Positions 7,413 to 60,392 are shown, counted from the stretch's first letter. The stretch: DNA of 64,000 nucleotides from Minisyncoccota bacterium (GCA_041665625.1 JBAYIK010000003.1:2967-66966); one strand, 5' to 3'. Made by a program: numbers and translations. The notes: generated by a model from the sequence alone, not told the origin.

Positions 7413-7437
7413 CCGCCTAAATAAAGATCAAGTAAAC

Positions 7438-11082: not shown

Positions 11083-12843
11083 ATGCCTATTAGTTTGCAA
11101 AGTTTAAAAGATTTTTTGCTCGATGCCCGCCTTTTGGCCGCGCGAGATTTTGATAGCGTCATGACTGAAGCCGGCGGTGACAACCGTCGGGCGGAGGATC
11201 TTTTGGTTAGTAAGGGTCTTATTAGTGAAGATGATTTACGTCGAGCAAAGTCTTACATCCTAGGTATCCCGTTTGTTGATTTGCATAAGGAACGAATTCC
11301 AAAGGAAGTCCTTTTCTTAATCCCTGAACCGGTCGCTCGTAAACATAATATTGTTGCCTATAAAAAAGGGGTGGATACTCTTGAAGTGGCGATGCTTGAT
11401 CCGCTTGATCTTGAATCAATCGATTTCATAAAGAAGGGAACCGGTCTTAAGATTTTACCTCGCCTTACTGATACTGATTCGATTAAAGCGGTTCTTGTTC
11501 AGTATCAAAAAAGCTTGAAGGCCGAGTTTGGCGACCTTATTCAAAAAGAGTCTTTGACGATTAAAAATCAGGCTGAAGGGGTTTCGAATGAAGATCCGAC
11601 TAGTGAGGATCTTAAGCGCTTGGCCGAGGGTTTGCCAGTCGTGAGGATTGTCGAGTCACTTCTTGAGCACGCCATTATGCAGAAGGCCTCAGACATCCAT
11701 ATTGAGCCTTTTGAACGGGAGCTTGTCATTCGTTACCGGATTGATGGGGTCCTTCATGACGCAATGATTCTTCCTAAAGAAACGGCTTCGGGGATTGTTG
11801 CTCGTATCAAAGTCTTGGCTAATCTTCGCCTGGATGAGAAGCGCCTCCCTCAAGATGGACGCTTTAAGACGACGAGCCACGGAGCTAACGTCTCTTACCG
11901 TGTCTCAACTTTACCAATTCAGTTTGGTGAGAAGGTCGTTATGCGTCTTCTTCCCGATTCTGTCCACGGGCTAACTCTTGAATCTGTCGGCTTCCACGGA
12001 GAAGGATTGGAAAAAATTCAGAAGGCGATTCAGCGCACGACAGGGATGCTCTTGGTCACGGGCCCAACTGGTTCGGGTAAATCGACAACTCTCTATGCCT
12101 TGCTTGATATTTTAAATACTCCTGACGTTAATATCTCGACGGTCGAAGACCCTGTTGAGTATCAGATCCGGCGCGTTAATCAAACTCAGGTTCGTCCTGA
12201 TATCGGTTTAACTTTTGCTTCAGGCCTTCGTACTCTCGTTCGTCAGGATCCTGACATTATCATGGTGGGAGAAATTCGTGACCAAGAAACAGCTAGTTTG
12301 GCTATTAATGCTGCCTTGACTGGGCATTTAGTTCTTTCTACTCTCCACACTAACTCGGCCGCAGGCACCATCCCTCGTCTCCTTGATTTAGGAGCAGAAC
12401 CCTTCTTATTGGTTTCGACTGTTGAGGTGATTGTTGCCCAACGTTTAGTACGTAAATTGTCTGACCCCAAGGAACCTTATATCCCTACTCCTGATGAGAT
12501 AAAAGCCTTGGGCGAAAAGGCTGATCTCCCCAAGGTGTTGTCTTGTCTTAAGAAAGAAAAAATTATTAAAGAAACTGACGACTGGGCCAATATCAATTTC
12601 TATCGGCCCAAGATTTCGGCTGACCCGGCTAACCCTGACGGCTATGCCGGTCGTCTTGCTATTGTCGAAGTCTTGACGATGTCTCGCGTTCTACGGGAAA
12701 TGATTATTAAGAACGCAACAGCCGAAGATCTTAACCGAGAAGCTCGAGAGGAAGGGATGCTCACTATGCTTGAGGACGGACTCTTCAAGGCGGTCCAGGG
12801 TTTAACCTCAGTTGAAGAAATATTGAGAGCTGTAACAGAATAG
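11083..12843 (+). CDS. pilB: Type IV pilus / type II secretion assembly ATPase (GspE/PilB family)
   Basis: Walker A LVTGPTGSGKSTTLYALL, Asp box, the Walker B/His box MVGEIRD...LVLSTLHTN, and an N-terminal GspE_N-like domain. Confidence 0.85.
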   Translation: MPISLQSLKDFLLDARLLAARDFDSVMTEAGGDNRRAEDLLVSKGLISEDDLRRAKSYILGIPFVDLHKERIPKEVLFLIPEPVARKHNIVAYKKGVDTLEVAMLDPLDLESIDFIKKGTGLKILPRLTDTDSIKAVLVQYQKSLKAEFGDLIQKESLTIKNQAEGVSNEDPTSEDLKRLAEGLPVVRIVESLLEHAIMQKASDIHIEPFERELVIRYRIDGVLHDAMILPKETASGIVARIKVLANLRLDEKRLPQDGRFKTTSHGANVSYRVSTLPIQFGEKVVMRLLPDSVHGLTLESVGFHGEGLEKIQKAIQRTTGMLLVTGPTGSGKSTTLYALLDILNTPDVNISTVEDPVEYQIRRVNQTQVRPDIGLTFASGLRTLVRQDPDIIMVGEIRDQETASLAINAALTGHLVLSTLHTNSAAGTIPRLLDLGAEPFLLVSTVEVIVAQRLVRKLSDPKEPYIPTPDEIKALGEKADLPKVLSCLKKEKIIKETDDWANINFYRPKISADPANPDGYAGRLAIVEVLTMSRVLREMIIKNATAEDLNREAREEGMLTMLEDGLFKAVQGLTSVEEILRAVTE

Positions 12844-12874: not shown

Positions 12875-14098
12875 ATGATTAATTTTTCTTATCGAGTTAG
12901 ACGTGACGGTGGAGGAGAAGAAACGGGGGAGCGTCTCTCGACGGATCGTTTTGCATTGGCCCGAGAATTGCGGGGAGAGGGGCTAACGGTTATTGCTGTC
13001 AACGAAATTAGGGTTAAGCCGGGCAATGATATTTTGTCGAAGATAAATATTTTTGGTCGCCGAGTAAAATTGAAAGATAAAATTATTTTTGCGAGCAACC
13101 TTAGTTCAATGCTTTCGGCGGGTTTGTCTTTGTCGCGGGCTTTGTCGGTTTTGTCCAAACAAACGAATAATAGAAACTTTAAAGGAGTCATCGACAAGGT
13201 CGGTGCAAAAATTAATAAGGGTGATAGTTTTAGTCGAGCCCTTGCTTCTTACCCTAAAGTTTTTCCTGAAGTTTTTGTGGCCATGATTGAAGCGGCTGAG
13301 GAGTCTGGCAAAATGCCTGAAGCCCTCAAATTAATTGCTGAGCAGCTAGAAAAAAGTTATGGCTTGCGCCGTAAAATTATGGGAGCTCTTATATACCCGG
13401 CAGTAATTGTGGTTGTCATTTTTGCCATCGGTATCTTGATGATGATTTTTCTCATCCCGACCTTGTCATCGACCTTTAGGGAATTAGATGTTCCTCTACC
13501 AGTGACAACGCTCTTTGTTATTAATCTCTCTGATTTTCTTGTTAATAATCTTGTTCTTGTTCTTATTTTAATAGCCGGGGCGGTAGCGGGGGCCTTCGTC
13601 TTCATCCGGTCAGATCTTGGCAAAAGTTACTCTTCAGCTCTTTTCTTATATATACCTTTTGTAAAGAACCTCACGCGCCAGGCCAATTCGGCGACGGTCT
13701 TGCGGACTATCTCTTCTCTTATCTCTGCTGGTGTCAGTATGACTCAAACGTTAGAAATTACGGCTCGCGTGGTTCAAAATGAGTATTATCGCAAAGTTCT
13801 AACTGAAGCTTATGATAAGGTCCAAAAGGGCTTACCTCTTTCAGCCGTGTTTGCTGCTCACCAAAACCTCTTTCCCATTTTTGCCAGTGAAATGTCCGCC
13901 GTGGGGGAGGAAACAGGTAAGTTGCCCGAACTATTACTTAAAGGAGCCCTCTTTTTTGAAGACGAAGTTGATCAAGTCACAAAAAATCTTTCCACTGTCA
14001 TTGAGCCCGTCTTAATGGTCTTTATTGGTATTGCTGTAGGCTTCTTTGCTATATCAATGATCGGTCCAATGTATTCACTTTCTAATGCGATTAAATAA
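12875..14098 (+). CDS. pilC: Type IV pilus / T2SS inner-membrane platform protein (GspF/PilC family)
   Basis: Two GspF-type repeats (GLSLSRALSVLSKQ..., ...SLISAGVSMTQTLEITARV), three TM segments, and synteny directly after the GspE ATPase. Confidence 0.8.
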   Translation: MINFSYRVRRDGGGEETGERLSTDRFALARELRGEGLTVIAVNEIRVKPGNDILSKINIFGRRVKLKDKIIFASNLSSMLSAGLSLSRALSVLSKQTNNRNFKGVIDKVGAKINKGDSFSRALASYPKVFPEVFVAMIEAAEESGKMPEALKLIAEQLEKSYGLRRKIMGALIYPAVIVVVIFAIGILMMIFLIPTLSSTFRELDVPLPVTTLFVINLSDFLVNNLVLVLILIAGAVAGAFVFIRSDLGKSYSSALFLYIPFVKNLTRQANSATVLRTISSLISAGVSMTQTLEITARVVQNEYYRKVLTEAYDKVQKGLPLSAVFAAHQNLFPIFASEMSAVGEETGKLPELLLKGALFFEDEVDQVTKNLSTVIEPVLMVFIGIAVGFFAISMIGPMYSLSNAIK

Positions 14099-31737: not shown

Positions 31738-32535
31738 ATGAAGAAATTTTTAAGTTTATGTCAGGAAATTAAGACCTCTGATGTTATAAAAGGCGGTCGG
31801 GTTTCTTTTGTTTTCTATTTTTTCCTCACCCATATACTTAACCTGGTTTGGCATTTTAATCAGAAATTGACCAGAATTATTGCGGCTCGGCTTGCTACCC
31901 CTAAGAGATTTCTGATTAAGAATAAAACCGGTTATTTTTGGGTTTCCCCCTTTAATGATTCAATGACGGTCTCGGCTGATTATTATGATTCTCAGCTGGT
32001 TAATTGGTTAGAAAAACCACCTAAGAAGAGGATTTTTGTTGATATCGGGGCTCATATTGGACGGTATTCAATTTTAGCTGGTAGGAAATACTACAAAGTT
32101 GTTGCTTTTGAACCAAATCCAGCTATTTTTTCAGTTTTAGAAAATAATATTAAAGCTAACAATTTAGAGGAAAAAGTTAATCTACATAAAGTTGCCTTAA
32201 GTGATAAACCCGGGACAGTCCTTTTTACCGTTGACGATATTTACTCGGTAGCAAGTGGCATTTCCGATGATGGGACGGGGTTACCTGTTTCTTGTGCCCT
32301 TGGCGATGAGATTCTTAAAGGGGTTAACTTTGAAGAGATTGATTTCATCAAAATAGATGTTGAGGGCCATGATCGGGAAGTTTTAAATGGGCTAAATGAG
32401 GTTCTAACCAAGATGCCTATGGGGAGCTTCATTATGATCGAGTTTGATAATGAGACCGCAAAAACCCTAAAGAAGTACTCCTTTGAATTTGTAAAATCTG
32501 ATGGTGGACTTAACCACTTGTTCGAAAAGAGATAG
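31738..32535 (+). CDS. FkbM-family SAM-dependent methyltransferase
   Basis: FVDIGAHIGRYSILAGRKYYKVVAFEPNPAIFSVLENN...VALSDKPGTV fits the Methyltransf_21/FkbM motif. Confidence 0.6.
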   Translation: MKKFLSLCQEIKTSDVIKGGRVSFVFYFFLTHILNLVWHFNQKLTRIIAARLATPKRFLIKNKTGYFWVSPFNDSMTVSADYYDSQLVNWLEKPPKKRIFVDIGAHIGRYSILAGRKYYKVVAFEPNPAIFSVLENNIKANNLEEKVNLHKVALSDKPGTVLFTVDDIYSVASGISDDGTGLPVSCALGDEILKGVNFEEIDFIKIDVEGHDREVLNGLNEVLTKMPMGSFIMIEFDNETAKTLKKYSFEFVKSDGGLNHLFEKR

Positions 32536-32642
32536 ACCTCCTTAACTTGATAGTCTCGGTGCCCGTGTTATTCCTTGTCAAATTGTCTTGCCCGGGAGTA
32601 TTATTAGGTCATTAAAAGTTCACAATTATAATAAATAAAAAT

Positions 32643-33065
32643 ATGGAAGGAGCACCAACACGAGAGTCAAGACGAGAAGAAGATATGACCCCAATTGAAA
32701 GGGTTAGAAACGCTAGGAATATTTTAGAAGAAAAAAGAGAAAATTTAGGGAATGCTGTTGGGGAGGTTGGGAGATTGGAGTTTGTTATTCGCTATGCCGT
32801 AAAACATCCAGGAACTCCTATTTCGCAATATGTCGAAAAATATCTTGAGAAGATAGACAAATATATTGAAGATGAAGGCGAAAATGCTGATCAGAATGAT
32901 GTAGCAAAAATGGCTGACAATATGCTCAACGGTTTTAATGAGATGCTCCTGGAACAAGGAGATCTTAGCATCGCAGAAGACAACCGGTTGATGGGGAAGG
33001 GTGAAACTTTTACTCCGACACAGGCCCCTTCTGAAGAAGGGGGGTCCGGAGCCATGGCTGCTTAA
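32643..33065 (+). CDS. Hypothetical acidic protein (140 aa)
   Basis: ORF with a plausible RBS context, no recognisable domain, Glu/Asp-rich. Confidence 0.35.
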   Translation: MEGAPTRESRREEDMTPIERVRNARNILEEKRENLGNAVGEVGRLEFVIRYAVKHPGTPISQYVEKYLEKIDKYIEDEGENADQNDVAKMADNMLNGFNEMLLEQGDLSIAEDNRLMGKGETFTPTQAPSEEGGSGAMAA

Positions 33066-37617: not shown

Positions 37618-39267
37618 ATGAAAAAATATATTTTAGGAGCCATCCTCGTTTTATCGCTGGTTGTCGTTCCTTTTGTATCTTCGGCTCAGACTTCTGGGAT
37701 TGCCCCCTGCCCGATTATCACGGTTAATTTATCTCTGGGTAGCACTGGGCCCGACGTCACGGCGCTTCAGAAGTATTTGATTGAAGAAGGCCTGTTAAAC
37801 ATAGAAGGGGGTGGCCCCACTGGCTATTTTGGTGATCTAACTAGGGCTGCTGTTGTCCGATGGCAGACTGATCACAACATTCTCAACGAGACTGGCTTCG
37901 GTCCCTTGTCTCGAGCCGCTTTAGACTCCCTCTGTTCTGTCTCAGGTAAAGAAATTTCTCCTCGCATCTCAGGTGTCTCTGGTCAAATCCAGGGTAAAAT
38001 TTATCCTGGGGCTTGGATTAAACTTACAGGGAATCGTTTGACGGCTGACGTACGTATTACTAAATCTGGTAATCCAAACATTGTTATCAAGCCTGAGGCA
38101 AAAAGTGTTACTTATTATGATGAGGGCCGAGAGAGAATGAGGATTGACTTCCAGCTTAGTTCCACCACTCCGGTTGGGAGCTACTATATCAATGTCTATA
38201 GTGCTACGGGAGTGAAGAGCCCAACAGTGCCTTTCCGTGTTGTTAAGAGGCCAGTGGCCGCCGACGGCCTTCTTGATCCGGTTATTGTCTCTGTTTCTGC
38301 CAGCACTACTGATATCTACCCTGGTTCATGGGTTAAATTACTTGGCAAAAGACTCAGTGGTGATGTTCGAATTACTAAACATAATTATCCCAACATCATT
38401 ATCAAGCCGGTGGCAAGAATTAATGCAGACGCCTCGAGGGTTGATTTCAAACTTCCTCCTGAAGTAACTGTTGGTGCTTACTATCTTAATGTTTACAGCG
38501 ATGTCGGACGCAATAGTAATACTATGCCATTGAGGGTGGTGGGCTCTAATTCTGAGGAAAATGTTCAACCAACAATTACCTTTGTTTCTCCAAGTGGAGG
38601 AGAAACATTTAAGTCAGGGCAACAAGTGATTGTTAGATATGATATGGCTAATTTCCTTCGAGTTGCTAACGTTCAAATTCAACTTAATAAAGGAGCTATT
38701 TATCCTGGGGGTCCTTATAACCCAGTGGGCAATGCTACTAATTATATGCCCGCCGGTCATTATACTTTTACTATTCCAGCAGATGCTCCTTCGGGGGATG
38801 ACTATAGCTTTATGATTAATTCTGATTACCCTAATACGGAAACTAGTGCTCATTTCCAATCGAACATTTTTAGTATCGTTGCCCCCGATACCTCTGCCTC
38901 TGGTAGGCCACGTATAGAGGGAGAGGTTCTTACTGGTGTCTCTGGTCATGGCACTGGCCATTGGCTTAGAATTCGTGGGGCTCGTCTGACGAACAATGTC
39001 GTTATTCGTAAATACGGCGGAACAGCCACGACAACTCTCTCTGGGGGTATCGTTTCTGGTGTTCCTGGTAATGCTGCCGCTTTCCTTGATATTGAGTTAA
39101 ATATCCCAGTTGGGAGCTATCAGCTTAATATAATTGGTTCTGATGGCACGGTTAGTAACACAGTAAGACTGAACGTCACAGCGGAAACGGCAAGCTCAAG
39201 AGCTAGTCAAATTGCAGCTGTCGCTAGCGCTATCCAGGCTCTGGTTGCTCAACTTAAGGTTCAGTAA
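37618..39267 (+). CDS. Secreted cell-wall-binding protein: N-terminal PG_binding_1-like domain plus three IPT/TIG-like beta-sandwich repeats; inserted between rplB and rpsS
   Basis: Signal peptide MKKYILGAILVLSLVVVPFVSSA. LSLGSTGPDVTALQKYLIEEGLL...GYFGDLTRAAVVRWQ matches the peptidoglycan-binding-domain consensus. Repeats begin YPGAWIKLTGNRLTADVRITK..., YPGSWVKLLGKRLSGDVRITK..., GHWLRIRGARLTNNVVIRK.... Confidence 0.6.
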   Translation: MKKYILGAILVLSLVVVPFVSSAQTSGIAPCPIITVNLSLGSTGPDVTALQKYLIEEGLLNIEGGGPTGYFGDLTRAAVVRWQTDHNILNETGFGPLSRAALDSLCSVSGKEISPRISGVSGQIQGKIYPGAWIKLTGNRLTADVRITKSGNPNIVIKPEAKSVTYYDEGRERMRIDFQLSSTTPVGSYYINVYSATGVKSPTVPFRVVKRPVAADGLLDPVIVSVSASTTDIYPGSWVKLLGKRLSGDVRITKHNYPNIIIKPVARINADASRVDFKLPPEVTVGAYYLNVYSDVGRNSNTMPLRVVGSNSEENVQPTITFVSPSGGETFKSGQQVIVRYDMANFLRVANVQIQLNKGAIYPGGPYNPVGNATNYMPAGHYTFTIPADAPSGDDYSFMINSDYPNTETSAHFQSNIFSIVAPDTSASGRPRIEGEVLTGVSGHGTGHWLRIRGARLTNNVVIRKYGGTATTTLSGGIVSGVPGNAAAFLDIELNIPVGSYQLNIIGSDGTVSNTVRLNVTAETASSRASQIAAVASAIQALVAQLKVQ

Positions 39268-43035: not shown

Positions 43036-44619
43036 ATGAAAAAATATCTATTTGGAATTGTCCTGGTTTTGTCTCTCGTTATTGCTCCTCTGACGACTTC
43101 AGCTGTCACTATCGCTGAGTTGCAAAATCAGATCGCGGCTCTTATGGCACAATTAGCTGCTCTACAAAATAATCGGTCAGTTTGTCAGTTCACCCACGAC
43201 CTATCTTTAGGTGATGGTGATAATGATGGTTTGTCGGGCGAAGTCACTGCTTTGCAGAGGATTCTCATCTCTGGTGGATATCTTAGGGTGGCAAAGCCGA
43301 CTGGTTGGTTTGGTAAAATGACTATGAATGCCGTTAAACAATGGCAAAACGCTAATGCCAAAGTTGGGCGAGCTGTCTCTGGTAATGGTTCAATTAACGC
43401 CAGTGACCGTGGAATTTTGTGCGGTAATATCCCAGATTCCTCAAGCTCAATTTCTATTTCTAATGTTTCTGGCCCAACTTCTCTTAATGTTAACCAGACT
43501 GGTACGTGGAGCGTTAGCGTTAAAGGCCCGAGTGGAACAAATTTAAATTATCGTGTGGCTTGGGGTGAATACGATGGCTACGCTGGCGTTTCGGCGAAGC
43601 CCGTGTCGGTTAATTTGGTCAATCAGACTGGGACATTTACACATGCTTATTCTAATCCGGGGACTTACACAATTAGGTTTAACGTTTACGATTACGACAA
43701 ATGTGACCCGACCGGTAATTCTTCATGTGTTGCTCAGGCTAGTCTGACTGTTGTTGTTGGAAGTAGTAATTCTGTCCAACCAATTGTCATTCAAGATGTT
43801 AAATATTCTCCGGCCTCACCAAAGGTCAATGAATTAATTACTACGACTGTTACGATAACAAATAGTAGCCTTAACCATTATAATTTGCCTTTCAAAGTTA
43901 ATGTTCAGGGTACGACAGTGACAGTTCCTTCTCTTCTTGCTAGAGAGTGGAAGACGGTCACTGTTCCCAATGCCTTCTCTTTTTCGGAGCCGGGAACGAA
44001 GACACTGAACACTTCGATTATCTATCCTTTATCTTATGACCCAGCTCAGGGGAATGTTGGTGATACATTTACCAATACCTTAACTTTTACCGCTGACTCG
44101 ACGTCTAATCCTTATATTAGTTCGGTTAGCTATGAAAAGGCTAGTCACAAGGTTACTGTTTGGGGTAGCAATTTGAATGGAGTTAATGCTGTCTATATTG
44201 ATAACACCTTGACTATTGTGAACGATCGCATCGCAGATTCTGACGGCAAGAAATTTACTTTCATTTTGCCAGCAGATATTGCCGCTATTGCTGGTAACCA
44301 CAGCTTGATTCTTATGAACGTGGCTGGACTTGGTAGCAATATGGTAACTCTCAGTGTTAATCAGGCTCCGTACATCAGAAGTGTCAATTATAGCTTCGGC
44401 ACTGCAAGTAATCGAGATATTGTTATCGTTGGAGAGAGACTCGACAAGGTAAATGCTATTTATGTTGATGGAGGCCAAATTTCTGCTGGCTACTCAATAG
44501 GAGATAATGGTAATATGCAATTTCTCTTGCCAACATCAATTGCAAGGGGTTCCCACACTATGCAATTGGGGAGTGTCTATGGGCGAAGTAACTCAGCCCC
44601 CTTCCTTGTTTCTAACTAA
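43036..44619 (+). CDS. Secreted cell-wall-binding protein, paralog of 37618-39267 (PG_binding_1-like plus IPT/TIG-like repeats); inserted between rplE and rpsN
   Basis: Signal peptide MKKYLFGIVLVLSLVIAPLTTSA. LSLGDGDNDGLSGEVTALQRILISGGYL...GWFGKMTMNAVKQWQ matches the PG_binding_1 consensus. C-terminal repeats VTVWGSNLNGVNAVYIDN... and IVIVGERLDKVNAIYVDG.... Confidence 0.6.
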   Translation: MKKYLFGIVLVLSLVIAPLTTSAVTIAELQNQIAALMAQLAALQNNRSVCQFTHDLSLGDGDNDGLSGEVTALQRILISGGYLRVAKPTGWFGKMTMNAVKQWQNANAKVGRAVSGNGSINASDRGILCGNIPDSSSSISISNVSGPTSLNVNQTGTWSVSVKGPSGTNLNYRVAWGEYDGYAGVSAKPVSVNLVNQTGTFTHAYSNPGTYTIRFNVYDYDKCDPTGNSSCVAQASLTVVVGSSNSVQPIVIQDVKYSPASPKVNELITTTVTITNSSLNHYNLPFKVNVQGTTVTVPSLLAREWKTVTVPNAFSFSEPGTKTLNTSIIYPLSYDPAQGNVGDTFTNTLTFTADSTSNPYISSVSYEKASHKVTVWGSNLNGVNAVYIDNTLTIVNDRIADSDGKKFTFILPADIAAIAGNHSLILMNVAGLGSNMVTLSVNQAPYIRSVNYSFGTASNRDIVIVGERLDKVNAIYVDGGQISAGYSIGDNGNMQFLLPTSIARGSHTMQLGSVYGRSNSAPFLVSN

Positions 44620-47908: not shown

Positions 47909-49183
47909 ATGATCGATACATTTCTAAACAAACTAAGACTCGTTTTTGAAGATCGCGGTCTGCGTAATCGGATTTTGTTTGTTGTTGCCGCGCTTTTTAT
48001 GTTCCGCTTAGGCGCCTCTATCCCTATCCCGGGCGTTAATGTTTTAGCTCTTGACCGTTTTCTCTCTGACAACCAATTCTTTGGGATGTTGAACATCTTT
48101 TCTGGTGGTGGTCTTTCTAACCTATCCATTATGATGTTAGGTGTTGGTCCTTATATTACCGCTTCGATTATTTTCCAGCTCCTTACCCTAGTTTTCCCTT
48201 CTCTAAAGCAGATGTACCATGAGGATGGCGCCGCTGGTCGTCGTAAGATTGCCCAGTATTCCCGTTATCTCACTGTTCCTCTTTGTGTCGTCCAGGGTTT
48301 GTCCTTGCTTGTTATGTTGGAGAAACAAGGCGTTTTAATGAATCTTACCTATTTCGATCGCATCCTTAACATTTTAGTTGTCACGGCTGGGTCAATGCTC
48401 TTGATGTGGATTGGTGAATTGATTACTGAGTACGGTATTGGTAACGGTGTTTCCCTCTTGATTTTTGCCGGTATCGTCTCAAGTCTTCCTTCTGTCCTTT
48501 CTCAGCTCTGGTTGACTGGTGATATGTCCAATATCCCAATGTACCTTGGCTTCGCTGTCTTGGCGGTGATCATCCTGGCCGCCATTGTCTTCATCACTGA
48601 AGCCGAACGGCCTATTCCTATTACCTATGCCAAACGAGTGCGGGGGATGAAGGTCTATGGTGGCACTTCTACTTATCTCCCTATTCGCGTTAATAATGCT
48701 GGTGTCATGCCAATTATCTTTGCCATTTCCATTATTCTCTTTCCTCAGATGATTGCTAATTATCTGGCCACTTCTAGCGTCGACTCGGTCAGAGTTGTCG
48801 CCGAAGCCGTCCTGGCTTTTATTAATAATGCTTGGGCCTATGGCATTTTCTACTTCCTCTTGGTAGTGGTCTTCACTTATTTCTATTCTGCCGTTACCTT
48901 TGACCCAGTTGCTATCTCTGAGAACTTGCAGAAGAATGGAGCCTTCATCCCCGGTGTTCGTCCTGGTCATTCCACCGCCCTTTATATTGGTAATATTTTG
49001 ACCCGTTTGACCCTAATTGGGTCTCTCTTCCTTGGTATTGTTGCTCTTTTGCCAATTCTTATCCAGAACATGACGGGGATTGCCTCGCTGGCTATTGGCG
49101 GAACGAGTCTCTTGATCGTCGTCTCAGTAGCGATTGAATTCGTCAAACAAATCAACGCTCAGATCTCAATGCGGGAGTATTAG
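47909..49183 (+). CDS. secY: Preprotein translocase subunit SecY
   Basis: Ten TM segments, with N-terminal LRNRILFVVAALFMFRLGASIPIPGV. Confidence 0.9.
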   Translation: MIDTFLNKLRLVFEDRGLRNRILFVVAALFMFRLGASIPIPGVNVLALDRFLSDNQFFGMLNIFSGGGLSNLSIMMLGVGPYITASIIFQLLTLVFPSLKQMYHEDGAAGRRKIAQYSRYLTVPLCVVQGLSLLVMLEKQGVLMNLTYFDRILNILVVTAGSMLLMWIGELITEYGIGNGVSLLIFAGIVSSLPSVLSQLWLTGDMSNIPMYLGFAVLAVIILAAIVFITEAERPIPITYAKRVRGMKVYGGTSTYLPIRVNNAGVMPIIFAISIILFPQMIANYLATSSVDSVRVVAEAVLAFINNAWAYGIFYFLLVVVFTYFYSAVTFDPVAISENLQKNGAFIPGVRPGHSTALYIGNILTRLTLIGSLFLGIVALLPILIQNMTGIASLAIGGTSLLIVVSVAIEFVKQINAQISMREY

Positions 49184-49211
49184 ACGCTCAGGTTGTTGCC
49201 TATAAAACCTA

Positions 49212-49240
49212 GAAAAATCCCCGGATGGGGTTTTTCTTTT
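49212..49240 (+). terminator. Rho-independent terminator after secY
   Basis: AAAAATCCCC-ggat-GGGGTTTTTCTTTT. Confidence 0.6.
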
Positions 49241-49301
49241 ATTTTTATGCTCTGAAGAGGTATACTTAAGCTATCGGCTTATTAGCTAAGGATTTTTTCT
49301 T

Positions 49302-52300
49302 ATGAGTAAAAAGATTAAAATATACTTTCTCAGCGTTATTTTTTTGGTTTCAGCCTTCTTTTTAACTCTTCCATTGGCATCATCGGCTGCAACTTTTTGT
49401 GTGAGGCACGATGGCACTGCCACGTTCACTCGTTCTGTCAGTAATATTACTAGCGACGTGGCCCATGGTGGTTACGTCAAGGTCCAAACTAGTGGTGCTG
49501 TCGCTGTTCCGGCGGGGGACTATATTACTCTTAGGGGGGTTGGTACTACTGGTCAAGATATCAATGGTACCCACCAAGTTATATTTAATGATTCTGGAAC
49601 TCCTAATAGACTTTTAACAATTGATGTTCCCTATGTTAGTGGTACTGGTGTAACTGGTGGATATATATTACCCTCGGGCTCAACGACTGACAGTGCTGTC
49701 GGGTTAACTAATGATGCTGGTCATTGCTTGGGGCTAGTAGCGAGTTTTAATAATGCTCACGCCTCGACCCCTTTCCTCCCGGGTGACATCATTTACTTTG
49801 GAGGAGCTCTTAGTACCACCGCTCTTTATACCATCACAGATAGTGGTTCGGCGGGTAATCCTATCACGTTTACTTCTTTTCCTGGTGCTATGCCTGCAAT
49901 TGACAATACCGCAGGGGTAATTCTCAACATTACTTCTGGGGTTTCTTATATTAACATTAATAATTTTATTGGTACTACTACCTCTGCGGGTAGCCAAGCA
50001 GTAAAATTCAACGGTAATAATAGCTATGTCACTATTTCTAGCAGTACTTTAGCTGTTGGAGGAGGAAATACTGGGAGCATTATTCAGTCGAACGGAACTG
50101 ATGTTCACGACATTACAATTTCCGATATTGTCGGTAATGGAGGAGCTGTCTCTTTTGCCACTGGTTCTCCTCAAAGTATATATCTCAATAATGTTAATAT
50201 TACTGGTGGGACAAGTATGGCTTTTGACGGGGTGAGCTCCACAACTTTAATTAATGTTTCTCATGCTAGCACGACTGGCTTTGGTTTACAGATTTTGAAT
50301 GGTCTAGGTAAGTTGACCATTGATAATTATGTTGGAGGTTCTTCCACCGATAAAGGGGTTTATATCCTTAATTCGACTTTTGATTCTGGTAGCCAACTTA
50401 TCAATTCTTCCGTTTCTTTTTCTAGTAGTAGCGCCTATTACTTGAGCAATGTGGAAGGCTTGTCTCTATCAAACAATGTTTCCTCTGATGCGAAAGGCCA
50501 CGCTTTCGTGATTCTTGGGTCAAGGGACTTAAGTTTCACCTCTAACACTGTGAATGTCCCATCAAATTTCCCCGCTGGCTCCTATGGTTTTTATGTGGTG
50601 AGTTCTTCAGATAATATAAATTTTAGCTCTAATACTGTAAATAATGCTATTGGGGCTGGGGCCAGTTATTCCGTCGATGGCTCGTCGAACATCAGTTTCA
50701 ATGGAGATTCCGTCGGTCTTACCTCGACAACCACTTCATTTTCCATTTCTTCTTCAACGGGCGTTTCTCTTAGGAATATCAGTGTCTCTAATGGTGGTTC
50801 GATGGCTTTTTCGAGTAGCTCAGCTCTAACGATTGACAACGTCTCTAGTGTTGATTCCCTTGGTTATGGTATGACTATTGTAAATAGCGTGGGAACCACC
50901 TCAATTAATAATTTGAATATCAGCTCCTCAACTCTTGCTGGATTATATGTCGCGACTTCAACTTTCTCTGGTAGCACAAATAAAGTATCTAACTCTACTA
51001 TCTCTACGCCTGGTACTTATTCGTACTTTCTAGATAATGTTTCTGGTTTAAGTTTGGAGGACAACTCTTCTGTTAACCCTGTCAGTCATGCCTTTATTAT
51101 CTCTAGCTCCACAAATATTAGTCTTACTAGAAATACGGCTACTGGAGGAGCCAGGGGCATTACTTCAACAGTTGGCTACTATGTCATTTCCACCTCTAGT
51201 AATATTACCTTTAATTCCAATATCTCCAATAGTGCTCGATCATCAGGGTTCGTGGTTAAAGATGGGTCTAACAATATAACTTTTAATTCTGACCTTGCCG
51301 AGAATTCCGTTGATCTGACTGGCTTCAGTTTTTCAGAAAGTTCCAACCTTATAACATGTAATTCTTGTATCGCGAGGAATAATGGCGACGATGGTTTCTC
51401 AACCACGGATTTTGCACATGATATAACTTTCAATAAATGTTTGGCCTACGGTAATGGTTCCTCAACGGTTGATTCCAGCGGCGATGGTTTTACCTCACAT
51501 AAAGAAAATTACAATATCTTGATCAACAATTCGCTCGCTTATGACAACTGGGATTCTGGCTTCGGGATGTCTGGTAGTAGCACGAGCGTTAATAGCTCCG
51601 GCCGCATTTACAACTCCGTCGCTGCTACTACCCGAGGCGGATCACGTCAGATGGCTGGGATGCTCTTTAGCACCCAAGGTTTAAATTCAACAACAAATGA
51701 AGGTTGGACTGTTAAAAATAATATTGGTTACAAAAATAATAACAACACTGGACTTGGCTATACTCCTCATGAAATTGCCACTTTTAATAGCACGGCCCTA
51801 TCTTCTGGCCGTGTCGCCCTTGATTACAATGTTTATAAGCCCTTAAGTGACGATACTTTCTCAATGGTCGGCGTTGCCCCGTCACCTTTTGTCTCTAAGA
51901 CTTGGGCCGAGCACTCAGTTTATGAACCTCACAGCGTTAATGCGAGCACCAGCCAAATCTTTGTTAGTGCTTCACCTTCAACCACGACCGACTTCCGATT
52001 AGCTGATCTTTCTCCCGCCATCGACGCTGGCGATTCCTCCATCGTCACTTCCACCACCACTGATTATCTCGGCAACCCACTCTATGGTGCTCCAGACGCT
52101 GGTGCCTTCGAATATCAGCCCACTCTGACCATTACCACCACTGACCCTCAATATACGGGCAATATCCGTATTTACGCTGACGGCAAGTATCGTTATACCT
52201 CGGCCACTTCTAGTGCCACCAGCGCCAACTTCTTAGTCACCCCCGTTAGCGGTTCTTACACCAGTTACGGTGCCTCCACCACCCGCCCAGAGTATCTAAA

Positions 52301-52976
52301 CGTCACCTTCAATACCTGGGAGACCACTGGCAGCCAGAACAAGAGTTGGACGGCTTCTTCCTCTATGGCTGGCGACACCACTTATACCATCGGTGACCTT
52401 GTTCCTAATACTCCCTACACTTTCAAACTAGACGGCACCGCCAACACTGCCATCACTAGCTCAGCCTGCTCTGGCTCAACCTGTACCTCAGACTCTGCTG
52501 GCCAAATCGTCTTCACCTATACGGGTGGCTATTCCACTCACACCTTCGAATTAGTTAATGCTACCGTTCCGGCCACGGAGACAGCCCCTGTTCATCGTTC
52601 CTCTGGTGGAACTGTCGCCAATCAGATCTCCAACTTAATTTCAATGGGAAATCTTGAATTAGCCAATGAACTTAGTGCCAAATACAATTTAGGAACTTCT
52701 TCTGCCGCCAAAGCTTCTTCAACCCTTCGTTATTCTTTTACTCGTAATCTAAAAACTGGCTCAACAGGCTCTGATGTTAAATTGTTGCAACAATTCTTAA
52801 ATACCCACGGCTTTATTCTGGCCAAGTCTGGAGCTGGGTCACCAGGGAGAGAGACGAGTTATTTTGGTCAAGCTACAAGAAACGCCTTAATCAGATTCCA
52901 AAAGGCTAACAAAATTACTCCCGCAGTCGGCTACTTTGGGCCGGTGACGAGGGGGGTGGTGGAAAGAATTAAATAG
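49302..52976 (+). CDS. Giant secreted parallel-beta-helix (pectate-lyase-fold-like) protein with a C-terminal PG_binding_1-like domain; sits between secY and adk
   Basis: Signal peptide MSKKIKIYFLSVIFLVSAFFLTLPLASSA. Long runs of ~22-25-aa beta-helix-type repeats rich in N/S/T/G/V (...SNNVSSDAKGHAFVILGSRDLSFTSNTV...). C-terminus LKTGSTGSDVKLLQQFLNTHGFIL...SYFGQATRNALIRFQKANKI fits the PG_binding_1 consensus. Confidence 0.55.
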   Translation: MSKKIKIYFLSVIFLVSAFFLTLPLASSAATFCVRHDGTATFTRSVSNITSDVAHGGYVKVQTSGAVAVPAGDYITLRGVGTTGQDINGTHQVIFNDSGTPNRLLTIDVPYVSGTGVTGGYILPSGSTTDSAVGLTNDAGHCLGLVASFNNAHASTPFLPGDIIYFGGALSTTALYTITDSGSAGNPITFTSFPGAMPAIDNTAGVILNITSGVSYININNFIGTTTSAGSQAVKFNGNNSYVTISSSTLAVGGGNTGSIIQSNGTDVHDITISDIVGNGGAVSFATGSPQSIYLNNVNITGGTSMAFDGVSSTTLINVSHASTTGFGLQILNGLGKLTIDNYVGGSSTDKGVYILNSTFDSGSQLINSSVSFSSSSAYYLSNVEGLSLSNNVSSDAKGHAFVILGSRDLSFTSNTVNVPSNFPAGSYGFYVVSSSDNINFSSNTVNNAIGAGASYSVDGSSNISFNGDSVGLTSTTTSFSISSSTGVSLRNISVSNGGSMAFSSSSALTIDNVSSVDSLGYGMTIVNSVGTTSINNLNISSSTLAGLYVATSTFSGSTNKVSNSTISTPGTYSYFLDNVSGLSLEDNSSVNPVSHAFIISSSTNISLTRNTATGGARGITSTVGYYVISTSSNITFNSNISNSARSSGFVVKDGSNNITFNSDLAENSVDLTGFSFSESSNLITCNSCIARNNGDDGFSTTDFAHDITFNKCLAYGNGSSTVDSSGDGFTSHKENYNILINNSLAYDNWDSGFGMSGSSTSVNSSGRIYNSVAATTRGGSRQMAGMLFSTQGLNSTTNEGWTVKNNIGYKNNNNTGLGYTPHEIATFNSTALSSGRVALDYNVYKPLSDDTFSMVGVAPSPFVSKTWAEHSVYEPHSVNASTSQIFVSASPSTTTDFRLADLSPAIDAGDSSIVTSTTTDYLGNPLYGAPDAGAFEYQPTLTITTTDPQYTGNIRIYADGKYRYTSATSSATSANFLVTPVSGSYTSYGASTTRPEYLNVTFNTWETTGSQNKSWTASSSMAGDTTYTIGDLVPNTPYTFKLDGTANTAITSSACSGSTCTSDSAGQIVFTYTGGYSTHTFELVNATVPATETAPVHRSSGGTVANQISNLISMGNLELANELSAKYNLGTSSAAKASSTLRYSFTRNLKTGSTGSDVKLLQQFLNTHGFILAKSGAGSPGRETSYFGQATRNALIRFQKANKITPAVGYFGPVTRGVVERIK

Positions 52977-53006
52977 TTTTGCTTTTAGGGTAACTTTGGG
53001 CTAAAA

Positions 53007-53636
53007 TTGAAGGATATGGAAAATAATCAAGAAGGCTCTGGTCTCAAGACCTTTATTTTTATTGGTCGTTCGGGCTGTGGCAAGGGGACGCAAGTTGAAC
53101 AGTTGGCCGAGCACTTAAAAGGGAAGGGGATCATCAATAGTGACCATGCTTGGTTGCGGGTGGAAACTGGTGCCCAGTTTAGGAAATTTGCCGAGAGAGA
53201 TAATTATTCAGCTTGCAAATTGAAGGAGTCCATGGAGAGTGGTAATCGTTTACCTGATTGTTTTGCTATTTGGACTTGGTGTAATTACTTTATTGAAAAT
53301 TATACTGGCGAGGAACACATCTTCTGTGATGGTTGCCCTCGTTCTTTGCTCGAAGCACAATCTTTAGATTTTCTTTTTAGATTTTATAATCGTAAAGAGT
53401 TGTCTGTTGTTTATCTTGATATCTCTAAAGAGGAGGCGACAAGGCGAATGCTCGCTCGGGGGAGGGCCGATGATCAGCTTGAAGATATCGAAAAACGATT
53501 AGAGTGGTTTGACAAGGACGTTGTCCCGGCGATTGAATATTACCGTAACAATTCTAAATATAAGTTTGTCGAGGTTGATGGAGAGCAGACAATTGAGAAA
53601 ATTCACGAAGACCTGATTTCAATGCTGGATGTTTAG
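53007..53636 (+). CDS. adk: Adenylate kinase (divergent)
   Basis: P-loop IFIGRSGCGKGTQ. CDGCPRSLLEAQSL aligns with LLDGFPRT. RMLARGRADDQLEDIEKRLEWF fits the LID/C-terminal region. Confidence 0.7.
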   Translation: MKDMENNQEGSGLKTFIFIGRSGCGKGTQVEQLAEHLKGKGIINSDHAWLRVETGAQFRKFAERDNYSACKLKESMESGNRLPDCFAIWTWCNYFIENYTGEEHIFCDGCPRSLLEAQSLDFLFRFYNRKELSVVYLDISKEEATRRMLARGRADDQLEDIEKRLEWFDKDVVPAIEYYRNNSKYKFVEVDGEQTIEKIHEDLISMLDV

Positions 53637-59993: not shown

Positions 59994-60392
59994 GGGTATG
60001 TAACGGTATCGACAGGTAGTTTGTCGTTAGCTGTGTATGTGGAGATGTCGACTTCCTCCTTAAATTGTCGGCAAAAACGTTAAATGCCAACGCATCTAAC
60101 AAGGGACTTGTGGCTTCGCCATATTTCTCTCCAGCCTTCGCTTTAGCCTAGTGCTGGTGTTCGTTTGAATCGCAGTCTGGATGACTCAAACGGGCATAAT
60201 AAATTCTGGACTAGCAAGTGGAAATTTCTCGGTCCACAAGCAAAACTAAGAGAATCGACTACTTAAGCTCTTGGTTATTTCTGACTTAAGTAATTTAAAA
60301 TTATCTTCGGATAATCTGAATTAACCTAAACATATAGATTCGCTAGGGATTGCTATTTGCACGGGAGTTCGACTCTCCCCATATCCACCACT
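59994..60392 (+). ncRNA. ssrA: tmRNA (transfer-messenger RNA, ssrA), immediately downstream of smpB
   Basis: The 5' end GGGUAUGUAACGGUAUCGACAGG resembles the conserved tmRNA 5' motif (GGGG.UGAUUCUGGAUUCGACGGG). The 3' end has a T-arm GGGAG-UUCGACU-CUCCC, acceptor strand CAUAUCC pairing with the 5' GGGUAUG, and a CCA. A candidate tag ORF GCC AAC GCA ... TTA GCC TAG (ANASNKGLVASPYFSPAFALA*) lies at 60086-60151. Confidence 0.6.

What the first reader, a model, noticed from the sequence alone, without database searches (positions are those of the whole stretch)
49302..52976. A 1224-aa parallel-beta-helix secreted protein with a C-terminal cell-wall-binding domain wedged between secY and adk
After the signal peptide the protein is a long array of N/S/T/G/V-rich ~22-25-aa repeats typical of right-handed parallel beta-helices (pectate-lyase or tailspike fold). 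It ends with a PG_binding_1-like domain (LKTGSTGSDVKLLQQFLNTHGFIL...FGQATRNALIRFQKANKI).

A cell-wall-anchored beta-helix protein could be an exopolysaccharide depolymerase or lyase, or an adhesin directed at a host envelope. Its placement inside the secY-adk junction, which is normally contiguous, is unusual.
Basis: partly seen in the sequence, partly recalled or inferred. Interest (0 to 1): 0.55.

Follow-up and report, generated by a model that had tools for sequence, protein, structure and literature searches.

The report
Wall-anchored beta-helix surface protein
This is a real gene for a large secreted, cell-wall-anchored "beta-helix" surface protein of an ultra-small (Patescibacteria/CPR) bacterium; it probably binds or cuts a polysaccharide, belongs to a very large but uncharacterised family, and was inserted recently next to secY, so it is mostly ordinary for this group.

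Summary
ORF 49302-52976 encodes 1224 aa: a signal peptide, a roughly 27-coil right-handed beta-helix, a cap, an FN3-like sandwich and a C-terminal PG_binding_1 domain. It lies between secY and adk. The identical protein is in NCBI as a Candidatus Paceibacterota "peptidoglycan-binding protein". An exhaustive HMMER search finds 8,256 related clusters, and none has a named function.

The core model (pLDDT 91.7) resembles Pel9A, K1 capsule lyase, GH136 lacto-N-biosidases and AlgE4. The family profile hits GH136 at E=1e-31. None of their catalytic sets is kept:
- the GH136 nucleophile position is Phe704;
- the AlgE-type GFDPHE motif reads GDGFTSH.

An invariant His733 flanked by Asp697 and Asp728 marks a probable groove site.

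Best reading: a wall-anchored, polysaccharide-binding and possibly polysaccharide-cleaving surface protein. A non-catalytic adhesin is the main rival.

The placement is a clean, lineage-specific insertion with its own terminator and promoter. It is shared with one 84%-identical ortholog and absent from the nearest species.

Two further PG_binding_1 proteins sit inside the same ribosomal cluster.

Verdict: new member of a known kind, modest interest.

The parts
47909..49183 (+). secY, the upstream neighbour and last gene of the spc-type ribosomal cluster
   Evidence: Pfam SecY 2.6e-102.
49211..49237 (+). Terminator-like hairpin (11-bp stem plus T-tract) directly after secY. It separates the beta-helix gene from the ribosomal/secY transcription unit.
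   Evidence: Promoter/terminator scan. Centroid fold. Conserved in the ortholog locus L001. A stronger 23-bp hairpin occupies the same place in the uninterrupted relative L003 (-37.7 kcal/mol, z -7.3).
49261..49292 (+). Putative own expression signals: a -10-like TATACT (49261-49266) and Shine-Dalgarno AAGGA (49288-49292), 9 nt before the ATG
   Evidence: Read from the sequence. GTATACTTAAG is conserved in L001. This is an inference; no transcription data exist.
49302..49388 (+). Sec signal peptide (aa 1-29), cleavage predicted after ASSA
   Evidence: Sequence features. The family consensus starts its mature chain at 'AATYYV'.
49389..49781 (+). N-terminal cap of the helix (aa 30-160), with a lineage-specific insert of about 100 aa bracketed by Cys33 and Cys142
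   Evidence: The cap motifs 'AATFCV..DG' and 'PGDIIYFGG..GNPITF' match the family/GH136 N-cap consensus. The insert has no Pfam, PDB or metagenome relative. It is the best-conserved part between the two orthologs (95.4%). pLDDT is low.
49779..51986 (+). Right-handed parallel beta-helix, aa ~160-895, about 27 coils
   Evidence: Pfam Beta_helix. AF2 models. Foldseek probability 1.0 to Pel9A, K1 lyase, GH136 and AlgE4.
50184..51353 (+). Internal tandem duplication of an 8-coil block: unit A aa 295-489 and unit B aa 490-684
   Evidence: BLASTP of the two halves: 39% identity over 193 aa, E 1e-31.
51354..51731 (+). Conserved 'motif coils' (aa 685-810): NNGDDGF (Asp697, codon 51390-51392), SSGDGFTSH (Asp728 at 51483-51485; invariant His733 at 51498-51500), DNWDSGF, KNN. 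This is the probable substrate groove or active site.
   Evidence: Subfamily alignment A3: G698, G719 and N806 are invariant alongside His733, and G729 and N749 are nearly invariant. The motif occurs in 39 of 122 homologs at a fixed distance from the cap. It aligns with the AlgE4/AlgE6 catalytic coil and with the GH136 acid/base coil. Identity between orthologs is 90.5%.
51978..52136 (+). C-terminal cap of the helix (aa 893-945), 'ADLSPAIDAGD...TDYLGNPLYGAPDAGAFEYQP' = choice-of-anchor Q domain
   Evidence: NCBIfam NF041518, 31.5 bits against a cutoff of 25. It holds the invariant columns of the family alignments. It aligns with the C-terminal cap of GH136 structures.
52137..52571 (+). FN3-like beta-sandwich domain (aa 946-1090), 'IRIYADGKYRY...YTGGYSTHTFEL'. 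Together with the cap it is the most widely shared module of the family.
   Evidence: AF2 pLDDT is mostly in the 90s and all-beta, apart from the last ~20 residues. There is only a sub-threshold fn3 hit, E 0.0018. Most of the top 150 representatives match query residues ~860-1070.
52572..52751 (+). Linker (aa 1091-1150) with two short helices. It is the least conserved part.
   Evidence: DSSP of the model. Identity to the ortholog is 46%, with 18 gap columns.
52752..52976 (+). PG_binding_1 domain (aa 1151-1224) and stop codon
   Evidence: Pfam PF01471, 2.2e-9. Three helices at pLDDT >90. Profile hits to PG_binding_1 domains of solved cell-wall hydrolases: 5tv7, 1lbu, 4xxt, 3bkh. The PHROG endolysin hits are limited to this segment.
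52977..53636 (+). Retained adk leader (TTTTGCTTTTAG...GGGCTAAAATTG) and adk. The conserved start is probably ATG 53016 rather than TTG 53007. No terminator lies between the beta-helix gene and adk.
   Evidence: Alignment with L001 and with the uninterrupted L003 junction. No hairpin in the fold of 52930-53015 (z 0.12). Pfam ADK.

Best explanation
**What it is.** The gene encodes a 123.5-kDa mature surface protein of a Paceibacteria (CPR/Patescibacteria) cell.

**How it most likely works.**
1. It is exported by Sec and its signal peptide is cleaved.
2. The C-terminal PG_binding_1 three-helix bundle holds it non-covalently on peptidoglycan, most simply the cell's own wall.
3. A poorly conserved linker, an FN3-like sandwich and a capped beta-helix project away from the wall. 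The helix has about 27 coils and is roughly 13 nm long, having been lengthened by an 8-coil duplication.
4. The strongly conserved N-terminal insert sits at the distal tip.
5. On the PB1 face of coils 685-810, Asp697, Asp728 and the invariant His733 line the groove that in related solved enzymes binds and cleaves or epimerises polysaccharide. The protein therefore binds a glycan, and probably cleaves or modifies it. The glycan could be host capsule, exopolysaccharide or wall glycopolymer, or environmental polysaccharide.

**How the gene is organised.** It is a self-contained cassette inserted just 3' of the secY terminator. It has its own promoter-like and Shine-Dalgarno signals and reads through into adk-map-ndk.

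**Shown:** ORF, domains, fold, homology, insertion boundaries.
**Inferred:** export, wall anchoring, groove location of the conserved residues, glycan substrate, catalysis, transcription units.
For: **Domains and fold.**

**Structural neighbours are all carbohydrate-active beta-helices.**
- Pel9A, K1 capsule lyase, GH136 LnbX/TnX/BsaX, AlgE4/AlgG, fucoidan lyase and GH87.
- Phage depolymerases.

**Sequence-profile homology to solved enzymes.**
- GH136: 1.3e-31 and 2e-30.
- K1 depolymerase: 9e-12.
- AlgE4: 2e-11.

**Conserved residues.**
- His733 is invariant, and G698, G729 and N749 are invariant or nearly invariant, in the subfamily alignment.
- The motif G[DG]GFxxH lies at a fixed distance (169-220 aa) from the cap in 39 of 122 homologs.
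- Asp697 aligns with the GH136 acid/base Asp and with AlgE4 Asp178. GH136 residue roles are from PMC7335108.
- His733 aligns with the His of the AlgE 'GFDPHE' coil.
- The motif coils are more conserved between the two orthologs (90.5%) than the flanking helix (83-87%).

**Anchoring.** PG_binding_1 is a recurrent C- or N-terminal module of this family (22 of 36 members). Extracellular PG_binding_1 proteins are reported as highly expressed in Paceibacteria (PMC10936435).

**Cassette structure.**
Against: - No member of the family has been characterised.
- Asp697 and Asp728 are not universal. They are replaced by I/L and by G in the 'GGGFLPH' branch.
- The GH136 nucleophile position is Phe704 in the window and mostly S/T/N in the family.
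- The AlgE catalytic Tyr and Asp are Asp728 and Thr731 in the register that matches His733. The alternative register puts the AlgE catalytic coil on a coil without His.
- G, N and F conservation in such coils is partly structural, as expected for PbH1 repeats.
- The most conserved parts of the wider family are the cap and sandwich, not the groove.
- Which peptidoglycan is bound (own or host) is unknown.
Confidence: 0.55

Rival explanations
1. Non-catalytic adhesin or surface fibre. The beta-helix is a rigid spacer and lectin-like binding surface that presents the conserved N-terminal tip insert to a host cell. The conserved coils bind a ligand but do not cleave it.
For: - The helix is unusually long and was extended by an 8-coil duplication, as in length-variable fibres.
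- Composition is very S/T/N-rich and low in charge.
- All tested catalytic constellations are incomplete.
- The tip insert is the most conserved segment between orthologs (95.4%).
- The helix N-terminal half is not shared with other family members.
- Pectin-lyase-fold proteins are listed among CPR cell-surface proteins (PMC5220378). They are proposed as attachment or degradation factors in an ectosymbiotic archaeon (bioRxiv 10.1101/2023.10.27.564410).
- Beta-solenoid adhesins without enzymatic activity exist, such as the L. reuteri serine-rich-repeat protein (own knowledge; the paper is listed).
Against: - An invariant His follows a lengthened T3 loop, at the intra-coil position used by the catalytic His of AlgE epimerases.
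- The motif coils are more conserved than the neighbouring coils.
- All closest solved relatives are enzymes.
Confidence: 0.3
2. Abundant structural envelope component (S-layer-like coat or wall-associated scaffold), anchored by PG_binding_1 and co-expressed with the translation and secretion machinery.
For: - Three PG_binding_1 secreted proteins are embedded in the ribosomal-protein cluster of this genome.
- Another family member lies between rplC and rplD in L095.
- PG_binding_1 extracellular proteins are among the most highly expressed genes in cultured Paceibacteria (PMC10936435).
- Beta-helix S-layer proteins exist, and S-layer proteins are reported in Patescibacteria (bioRxiv 10.1101/2024.05.28.596244).
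Against: - Codon adaptation is average: CAI 0.56, against 0.70 for ribosomal proteins and 0.50-0.63 for other genes.
- A terminator separates the gene from the ribosomal/secY unit.
- The gene is absent from this site in the closest species, which is unexpected for a core coat protein.
- No lattice-forming evidence exists.
Confidence: 0.08
3. Cell-wall hydrolase or teichoic-acid-type depolymerase (autolysin or endolysin-like). PG_binding_1 targets the enzyme to peptidoglycan, and the helix cleaves a wall polymer of the host or of the cell itself.
For: - PG_binding_1 typically accompanies wall hydrolases (PDB hits 1lbu, 4xxt, 3bkh, 7rum; PHROG endolysin hits).
- BFVD neighbours include a Bacillus-phage pre-neck appendage protein.
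Against: - The PHROG and PDB hydrolase hits cover only the PG_binding_1 segment.
- No amidase, lysozyme, transglycosylase or peptidase domain was found.
Confidence: 0.05
4. Remnant of a prophage tailspike or depolymerase captured in the chromosome.
For: Fold similarity to tailspikes and capsule depolymerases.
Against: - It has a signal peptide and a PG_binding_1 anchor rather than a particle-binding N-terminal domain.
- There are no phage genes on either side; the neighbours are secY and adk.
- There are no PHROG structural hits.
- GC, GC3 and CAI are native-like.
- The insertion is gene-sized and clean, with no repeats or integrase.
Confidence: 0.02

Closest known systems
GH136 lacto-N-biosidase beta-helix subunit (LnbX; BsaX 7v6i, TnX 7v6m, ErLnb136 6kqs)
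   Same: - It is the best sequence-detectable solved relative of the family: profile E 1.3e-31 and 2e-30, spanning from the N-cap 'TYYVS..GDxIxF' to the C-cap 'SPAI.AG...D..GN...G.PD.GA.E'.
- The fold is the same (Foldseek probability 1.0).
- The GH136 acid/base Asp aligns with Asp697.
   Different: - The nucleophile Asp, 7 residues downstream (D575 in ErLnb136; PMC7335108), is Phe704 here and is not Asp in the family.
- The family-specific SxGDGFxxH coil is a gap in GH136.
- No LnbY/GH136-I partner gene or domain is present. GH136 needs one (PMC8106489 and PMC7335108).
- This protein has a far longer helix, a sandwich domain and a PG_binding_1 anchor.
CASH-type alginate C5-epimerases (AlgE4/AlgE6 A-modules, AlgG) and Klebsiella K1 capsule lyase/depolymerase
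   Same: - Homologous PbH1 coils: profile E 2e-11 to AlgE4 and 9e-12 to K1 depolymerase, and 1.4e-9 with the motif region alone.
- AlgE4 gives the best TM-score normalised to target length (0.56).
- 'GDDGF' is identical to the K1 depolymerase coil.
- His733 occupies the intra-coil position of the catalytic His in 'GFDPHE'.
   Different: - The catalytic motif YG(F/I)DPH(D/E) (own knowledge for the residue roles) is not conserved. Tyr is replaced by Asp728 and Asp by Thr731 in one register.
- In the other register the whole motif falls on a coil reading LTGFSFSES.
- There are no R-modules, the organism differs, and no alginate context is present.
PL9 pectate lyase Pel9A (1ru4)
   Same: - It is the top Foldseek hit for the confident core model (E 9.9e-6, probability 1.0, TMt 0.51).
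- A weak profile hit covers the motif coils (E 0.0039).
- The public collection records a faint PF22842 Pel9A-like hit.
   Different: - PF22842 is not recovered by hmmscan even at E<=10.
- Identity is 14%.
- The Ca2+-ligand Asp cluster and the catalytic Lys of Pel9A could not be checked residue by residue.
Pectin-lyase-fold and PG_binding_1 surface proteins already noted in CPR/Paceibacteria genomes
   Same: - Same organism group and same domain types.
- The literature states that most CPR bacteria carry multiple cell-surface proteins with pectin-lyase, lectin or FN3 domains (PMC5220378).
- It also reports that PG_binding_1 extracellular proteins are highly expressed in Paceibacteria (PMC10936435).
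- NCBI already names this protein 'peptidoglycan-binding protein' and names relatives 'right-handed parallel beta-helix repeat-containing protein'.
   Different: Those reports are domain-level annotations. This specific architecture (helix subtype with GDGFxxH, cap, sandwich, PG_binding_1) and its position next to secY are not described in the papers I read.

Membership tests
Right-handed parallel beta-helix (pectin-lyase-like superfamily; Pfam Beta_helix PF13229) | Profile match above the curated threshold | tested here: met
   34.7 bits against a cutoff of 25.9, in 3 stretches. 30 of 36 family members also match.
Right-handed parallel beta-helix (pectin-lyase-like superfamily; Pfam Beta_helix PF13229) | Three-stranded coils stacked into a single right-handed helix in a confident structure model | tested here: met
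   The core model has pLDDT 91.7 and pTM 0.91, with regular triplets of strands. Foldseek gives probability 1.0 to many solved beta-helices. The low-confidence N-terminal half is 39% identical to the confident part.
PG_binding_1 (PF01471) | Profile match above threshold and a three-helix bundle | tested here: met
   37.8 bits against a cutoff of 23 at residues 1155-1216. Three helices have pLDDT >90. Actual peptidoglycan binding is not testable here.
Choice-of-anchor Q domain (NCBIfam NF041518) | Profile match above threshold at the C-terminal end of a beta-helix, followed by an anchoring module | tested here: met
   31.5 bits against a cutoff of 25 at residues 893-939. It is followed by a sandwich domain and PG_binding_1.
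GH136 lacto-N-biosidase | Homology of the beta-helix (GH136-II) domain | tested here: met
   The family profile hits 7v6i at 1.3e-31 and 7v6m at 2e-30. This holds at family-profile level only; the single sequence finds no PDB hit.
GH136 lacto-N-biosidase | Catalytic Asp pair: acid/base, and nucleophile 7 residues downstream | tested here: not met
   The acid/base position is Asp697. The nucleophile position is Phe704, and is S/T/N/K in the family. Residue roles are from PMC7335108.
GH136 lacto-N-biosidase | Obligatory helical partner (LnbY / GH136-I) as an adjacent gene or fused domain | tested here: not met
   The neighbours are secY and adk, and the protein has no helical N-terminal domain.
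Mannuronan C5-epimerase / K1-lyase type CASH enzymes | Catalytic coil motif G-F-D-[PT]-H-[DE] with the preceding Tyr | tested here: not met
   The best register gives S-G-D-G-F-T-S-H-K: the His is kept, Tyr becomes Asp728 and Asp becomes Thr731. The other register gives LTGFSFSES.
Mannuronan C5-epimerase / K1-lyase type CASH enzymes | Asp on the following 'DGF' coil (AlgE4 Asp178) | tested here: inconclusive
   It aligns with Asp697 in one register and with Ser752, next to Asp751, in the other.
PL9 pectate lyase | Pfam Pel9A-like_beta_helix (PF22842) match | tested here: not met
   The model is not recovered at E<=10. Only a 'faint' precomputed hit is on record.
PL9 pectate lyase | Ca2+-binding Asp cluster and catalytic Lys | not tested
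   No residue-level alignment to 1ru4 could be obtained. It ranked below the alignments printed.
Phage tailspike / capsule depolymerase | N-terminal particle-binding domain and phage gene context | tested here: not met
   The N-terminus is a signal peptide. The flanking genes are secY, adk and map. PHROG hits are limited to PG_binding_1.
Autotransporter passenger | C-terminal outer-membrane beta-barrel translocator | tested here: not met
   The C-terminus is an FN3-like sandwich, a linker and PG_binding_1.

The most novel reading that the evidence does not exclude
The 'GDGFxxH' beta-helix subfamily could be a new, uncatalogued family of polysaccharide-cleaving or -modifying enzymes. In this reading, a His-based active site related to, but distinct from, those of alginate epimerases, K1 lyase and GH136 is displayed on the wall of episymbiotic Patescibacteria to open or graze host envelope glycans. 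The repeated lodging of such PG_binding_1 surface-protein genes inside ribosomal-protein and Sec-gene clusters would then couple their expression to growth. Examples are the three in this window, the one between rplC and rplD in L095, and those next to secD in L087 and L089.
Probability: 0.2. Interest if true: 0.6.

Novelty: new member of a known kind. Interest (0 to 1): 0.3.

Why it matters
Patescibacteria are thought to live attached to other cells, yet almost none of their surface proteins has a known function. This protein is a well-modelled representative of a family with thousands of members.

It offers:
- a defined architecture: tip insert, long helix, conserved groove with an invariant His, cap, sandwich and peptidoglycan anchor;
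- three obvious residues to mutate: Asp697, Asp728 and His733.

If it proves to be an enzyme, it would add a carbohydrate-active family and a concrete host-interaction factor. If it is an adhesin, the conserved tip is the candidate host-binding module.

The genomic placement by itself matters little. It shows that ribosomal and Sec clusters in this class tolerate insertions.

Tried and rejected
**Searches that found nothing.**
- Single-sequence search of PDB sequences: no hit. Only family profiles reached solved relatives.
- Tandem-repeat search of the DNA: nothing meaningful. The protein repeats are not DNA repeats.
- The N-terminal insert (aa 30-160) has no Pfam, PDB or JGI-metagenome relative.

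**Tools with limits or failures.**
- The word-indexed homolog search returned only 6-35 hits because the low-complexity words swamp the candidate list. The exhaustive search was needed.
- An alignment of 90 full-length proteins failed.
- Model coordinates are not exposed, so conserved residues could not be mapped in 3D.

**Ideas tested and rejected.**
- Prophage or tailspike origin: no phage context and a native-like composition.
- Autotransporter: there is no barrel.
- High expression inferred from codon usage: CAI is average.
- A conserved operon partner: neighbours of 18 family members are unrelated housekeeping genes such as gyrA, gltX, thrS, glycosyltransferases and secDF.
- Enrichment of PG_binding_1 genes in ribosomal clusters: only 4 of 82 loci, so no statistical case.
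- A conserved Arg in the coil after the motif: the alignment is ambiguous by 2 residues for the window protein, so it is not claimed.
- Target-site duplication at the insertion: the T-rich flanks are too simple to judge.

Full report
**1. The observation**

ORF 49302..52976 on the + strand starts with ATG and encodes 1224 aa. Upstream lies SecY (47909..49183; Pfam 2.6e-102). Downstream lie adenylate kinase, methionine aminopeptidase and nucleoside-diphosphate kinase.

The product has these features:
- It begins with a typical Sec signal peptide, MSKKIK / hydrophobic core / ASSA|AT.
- It is 47% S+T+G+N.
- It matches the NCBIfam choice-of-anchor Q domain at residues 893-939.

The identical protein is in NCBI as 'MAG: peptidoglycan-binding protein [Candidatus Paceibacterota bacterium]' on a 91-kb contig. 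An 84%-identical ortholog also exists.

**2. Anatomy**

AlphaFold2 of the mature chain is confident for the C-terminal two thirds only. A second model of residues 470-1100, built on 58 homologs, reaches pLDDT 91.7 and pTM 0.91.

Reading along the chain:
- **N-cap (aa 30-160).** The helix cap carries a lineage-specific insert of about 100 aa between Cys33 and Cys142. The insert has no relative in Pfam, PDB or JGI metagenomes.
- **Helix (aa ~160-895).** A right-handed helix of about 27 coils. Residues 295-487 and 490-682 are a tandem duplication of an 8-coil block (39% identity, E 1e-31). This explains the unusual length, and shows that the low-confidence half is helix too.
- **Cap (aa 893-945).** The motif is 'SPAIDAG...TDYLGNPLYGAPDAGAFEYQP'.
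- **Sandwich (aa 946-1090).** An FN3-like domain with only a sub-threshold fn3 hit.
- **Linker, then PG_binding_1.** The linker is variable and the PG_binding_1 bundle has three helices.

The mature protein is 123.5 kDa with pI 5.1.

**3. Family**

An exhaustive HMMER search of 1.84 billion representatives gives 8,256 clusters at E<=1e-3 and 338 at E<=1e-30. Most share the cap, sandwich and PG_binding_1 part. The helix in front of it comes in several subtypes.

Source names are generic: peptidoglycan-binding, right-handed parallel beta-helix repeat-containing, or Ig-like. Nearly all sources are Patescibacteria.

The window protein belongs to a subtype that carries G[DG]GFxxH 169-220 residues before the cap. 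This subtype accounts for 39 of 122 homologs.

In an 18-sequence alignment of this subtype:
- His733, Gly698, Gly719 and Asn806 are invariant.
- Gly729 and Asn749 are nearly invariant.
- Asp697 and Asp728 are present in most members. In a 'GGGFLPH' branch they are replaced, by I/L and by G respectively.

**4. Relation to solved proteins**

The single sequence finds nothing in the PDB. The family profile does:

| Solved protein | Profile E-value |
|---|---|
| GH136 lacto-N-biosidase BsaX | 1.3e-31 |
| GH136 lacto-N-biosidase TnX | 2e-30 |
| Parallel beta-helix repeat protein 9rx2 | 1.5e-18 |
| K1 capsule depolymerase | 9e-12 |
| AlgE4 | 2e-11 |
| PG_binding_1 domains of wall hydrolases | 8e-8 to 0.04 |

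Foldseek with the confident model gives probability 1.0 to Pel9A, K1 lyase, LnbX/TnX/BsaX, AlgE4/AlgG, fucoidan lyase and GH87, at 9-14% identity. It also matches generic tailspike and depolymerase helices in BFVD.

The known catalytic sets are not kept:
- **GH136.** ErLnb136 uses Asp568 as acid/base and Asp575 as nucleophile (PMC7335108). In the HMMER alignment the first aligns with Asp697. The second falls on Phe704, which is S/T/N/K in the family. The family's SxGDGFxxH coil is a gap in GH136. There is also no LnbY-like partner, which GH136 requires.
- **AlgE/K1-lyase.** The 'GFD[PT]H[DE]' coil aligns in two registers. In one it falls on LTGFSFSES, with AlgE4 Asp178 on Asp697. In the other it falls on SGDGFTSHK, which keeps the His but changes Tyr to Asp728 and Asp to Thr731.
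- **PL9.** Pfam's PL9-like model is not recovered.

The protein works like a carbohydrate-active beta-helix, but it cannot be filed in GH136, the epimerase/lyase group or PL9.

**5. Mechanism**

The DGF and GDGF motifs end the T3 turn and start strand PB1. His733 follows that strand, at the position used by the catalytic His of AlgE enzymes. The T3 loop before GDGF is lengthened to 13 residues.

By homology of register, Asp697, Asp728 and His733 line the canonical PB1 groove.

Conservation between the two orthologs is uneven:

| Region | Identity |
|---|---|
| N-terminal insert | 95.4% |
| Motif coils | 90.5% |
| Sandwich | 90.3% |
| Rest of the helix | 83-87% |
| PG_binding_1 | 74% |
| Linker | 46% |

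My best reading is a wall-anchored protein that projects about 13 nm and binds a polysaccharide in this groove. It probably also cleaves or modifies it, and it carries a constrained distal tip. I give about 0.55 to this glycan-binding, possibly catalytic reading, and roughly even odds within it that the protein is truly catalytic. A non-catalytic adhesin or fibre is the main rival at 0.3.

**6. Placement**

The 84% ortholog sits in the same place, secY-[gene]-adk-map-ndk, in a Logan contig whose SecY is 97% identical.

The closest species representative (SecY 91%, 'Candidatus Vogelbacteria' CAIPHT01) has secY and adk 70 nt apart, separated by a 23-bp hairpin (-37.7 kcal/mol, z -7.3).

Alignments show what the window retains:
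- a hairpin plus T-tract right after secY (49211-49237);
- new sequence with a -10-like TATACT and an AAGGA Shine-Dalgarno;
- the gene itself;
- then the ancestral adk leader, 'TTTTGCTTTTAG...GGGCTAAAATTG..ATG', directly after the stop codon.

The insertion is clean and gene-sized, with no repeats or mobile-element genes. GC, GC3 and codon adaptation are native-like and average, with CAI 0.56 against 0.70 for ribosomal proteins.

Across 68 related species with both genes on one contig:
- secY and adk are adjacent in 33;
- they are separated by at least one other ORF in 35.

The intervening ORFs are guanylate kinase, cytidylate-kinase-like genes, type IV pilin-like genes, small unknown ORFs and, in L021, a 402-aa PG_binding_1 protein. 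The junction is therefore a common insertion point in this class. Only the identity of the insert is lineage-specific.

**7. Context seen on the way**

The same ribosomal supercluster holds two more secreted PG_binding_1 proteins, each flanked by terminator-like hairpins:
- 37618..39267, between rplB and rpsS;
- 43036..44619, between rplE and a Metallophos_2 gene/rpsN.

PG_binding_1 ORFs embedded in the cluster occur in only 4 of 82 loci.

Other family members show related placements:
- In metagenome locus L095, a 964-aa family member lies between rplC and rplD.
- In L087 and L089, a family member lies just upstream of secD.
- Elsewhere the neighbours are unrelated housekeeping genes. There is no operon partner to lean on.

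**8. Novelty and score**

The literature already notes that CPR bacteria carry multiple surface proteins with pectin-lyase-type domains (PMC5220378). It also reports that extracellular PG_binding_1 proteins are highly expressed in Paceibacteria (PMC10936435). The protein is already annotated generically.

This is a new member of a known kind. Its useful specifics are the GDGFxxH groove motif, the cap-sandwich-anchor module, the tip insert and the insertion history. Interest is 0.3.

The most novel reading not excluded is a new His-based polysaccharide-active family used in host interaction, with growth-coupled expression from ribosomal and Sec clusters. I give that reading a probability of 0.2.

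Noticed in passing
window 37618-39267 and 43036-44619: Two more secreted proteins with an N-terminal PG_binding_1 domain (549 aa and 527 aa, with Ig/PKD-like repeats) are embedded in the ribosomal-protein cluster. One lies between rplB and rpsS; the other lies between rplE and a Metallophos_2 gene/rpsN. Each is flanked by terminator-like hairpins, so the cluster is split into several units. Only 4 of 82 related loci have any such embedded gene.
   Followed up: partly
L095 4228-7122 (metagenome contig Ga0172379_10000185): An independent member of the same family (964 aa; a NosD-like helix subtype, cap, sandwich and PG_binding_1) sits between rplC and rplD of another Patescibacterium. This is a second, unrelated insertion of this family into a ribosomal operon.
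   Followed up: partly
L087 3682-7212 and L089 29-3682: Family members lie immediately upstream of secD (secDF) in two metagenome contigs, while the window gene lies immediately downstream of secY. This may be coincidence or shared ancestry of the two contigs.
   Followed up: no
L003-L082 (secY loci of 80 species representatives): The secY-adk junction is interrupted in about half of the related Paceibacteria. The usual insert is a guanylate kinase and/or a divergently oriented cytidylate-kinase-like gene. Sometimes there is a second ADK paralog, type IV pilin-like genes (L007, L009) or an Lnt-like membrane protein (L009).
   Followed up: partly
L003 11273-11322: The uninterrupted relative has an exceptionally strong, perfectly paired 23-bp hairpin between secY and adk (-37.7 kcal/mol, z -7.3). 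It looks like a bidirectional terminator inside what is usually one operon.
   Followed up: no
window 53007-53018: The adk ORF as listed starts at TTG 53007. The ATG at 53016 and its upstream sequence are conserved in L001 and L003, so 53016 is the more likely start.
   Followed up: partly
window 31738-33065: Two non-ribosomal genes sit between fusA and tuf: an FkbM-type methyltransferase (265 aa, GC 0.37) and a 140-aa acidic protein with no family match sought.
   Followed up: no
window 1251-10989: Three giant secreted proteins (801, 1066 and 1143 aa) precede a type IV pilus gene set (pilB-like 11083-12843, pilC-like 12875-14098, pseudopilin-like ORFs). The 1066-aa and 1143-aa proteins share a clearly homologous Cys-containing C-terminal domain of about 230 aa ending in '...RATL(T/S)CELNGLT...ENTY'. 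Two of the three have no Pfam match.
   Followed up: no
window 49398-49400 and 49725-49727 (Cys33, Cys142): The ~100-aa insert in the N-terminal cap is bracketed by two Cys (Cys33, Cys142), both kept in the ortholog. This suggests a disulfide clamp at the base of a tip domain. The insert is the most conserved segment between orthologs, yet it has no detectable relatives.
   Followed up: partly
window 59994-60390: A tmRNA gene with tag peptide ANASNKGLVASPYFSPAFALA.
   Followed up: no
PDB entry 9rx2: A recently deposited 'parallel beta-helix repeat protein' (717 aa) is the third-best solved sequence relative of the family profile (E 1.5e-18). Its function was not looked up.
   Followed up: no
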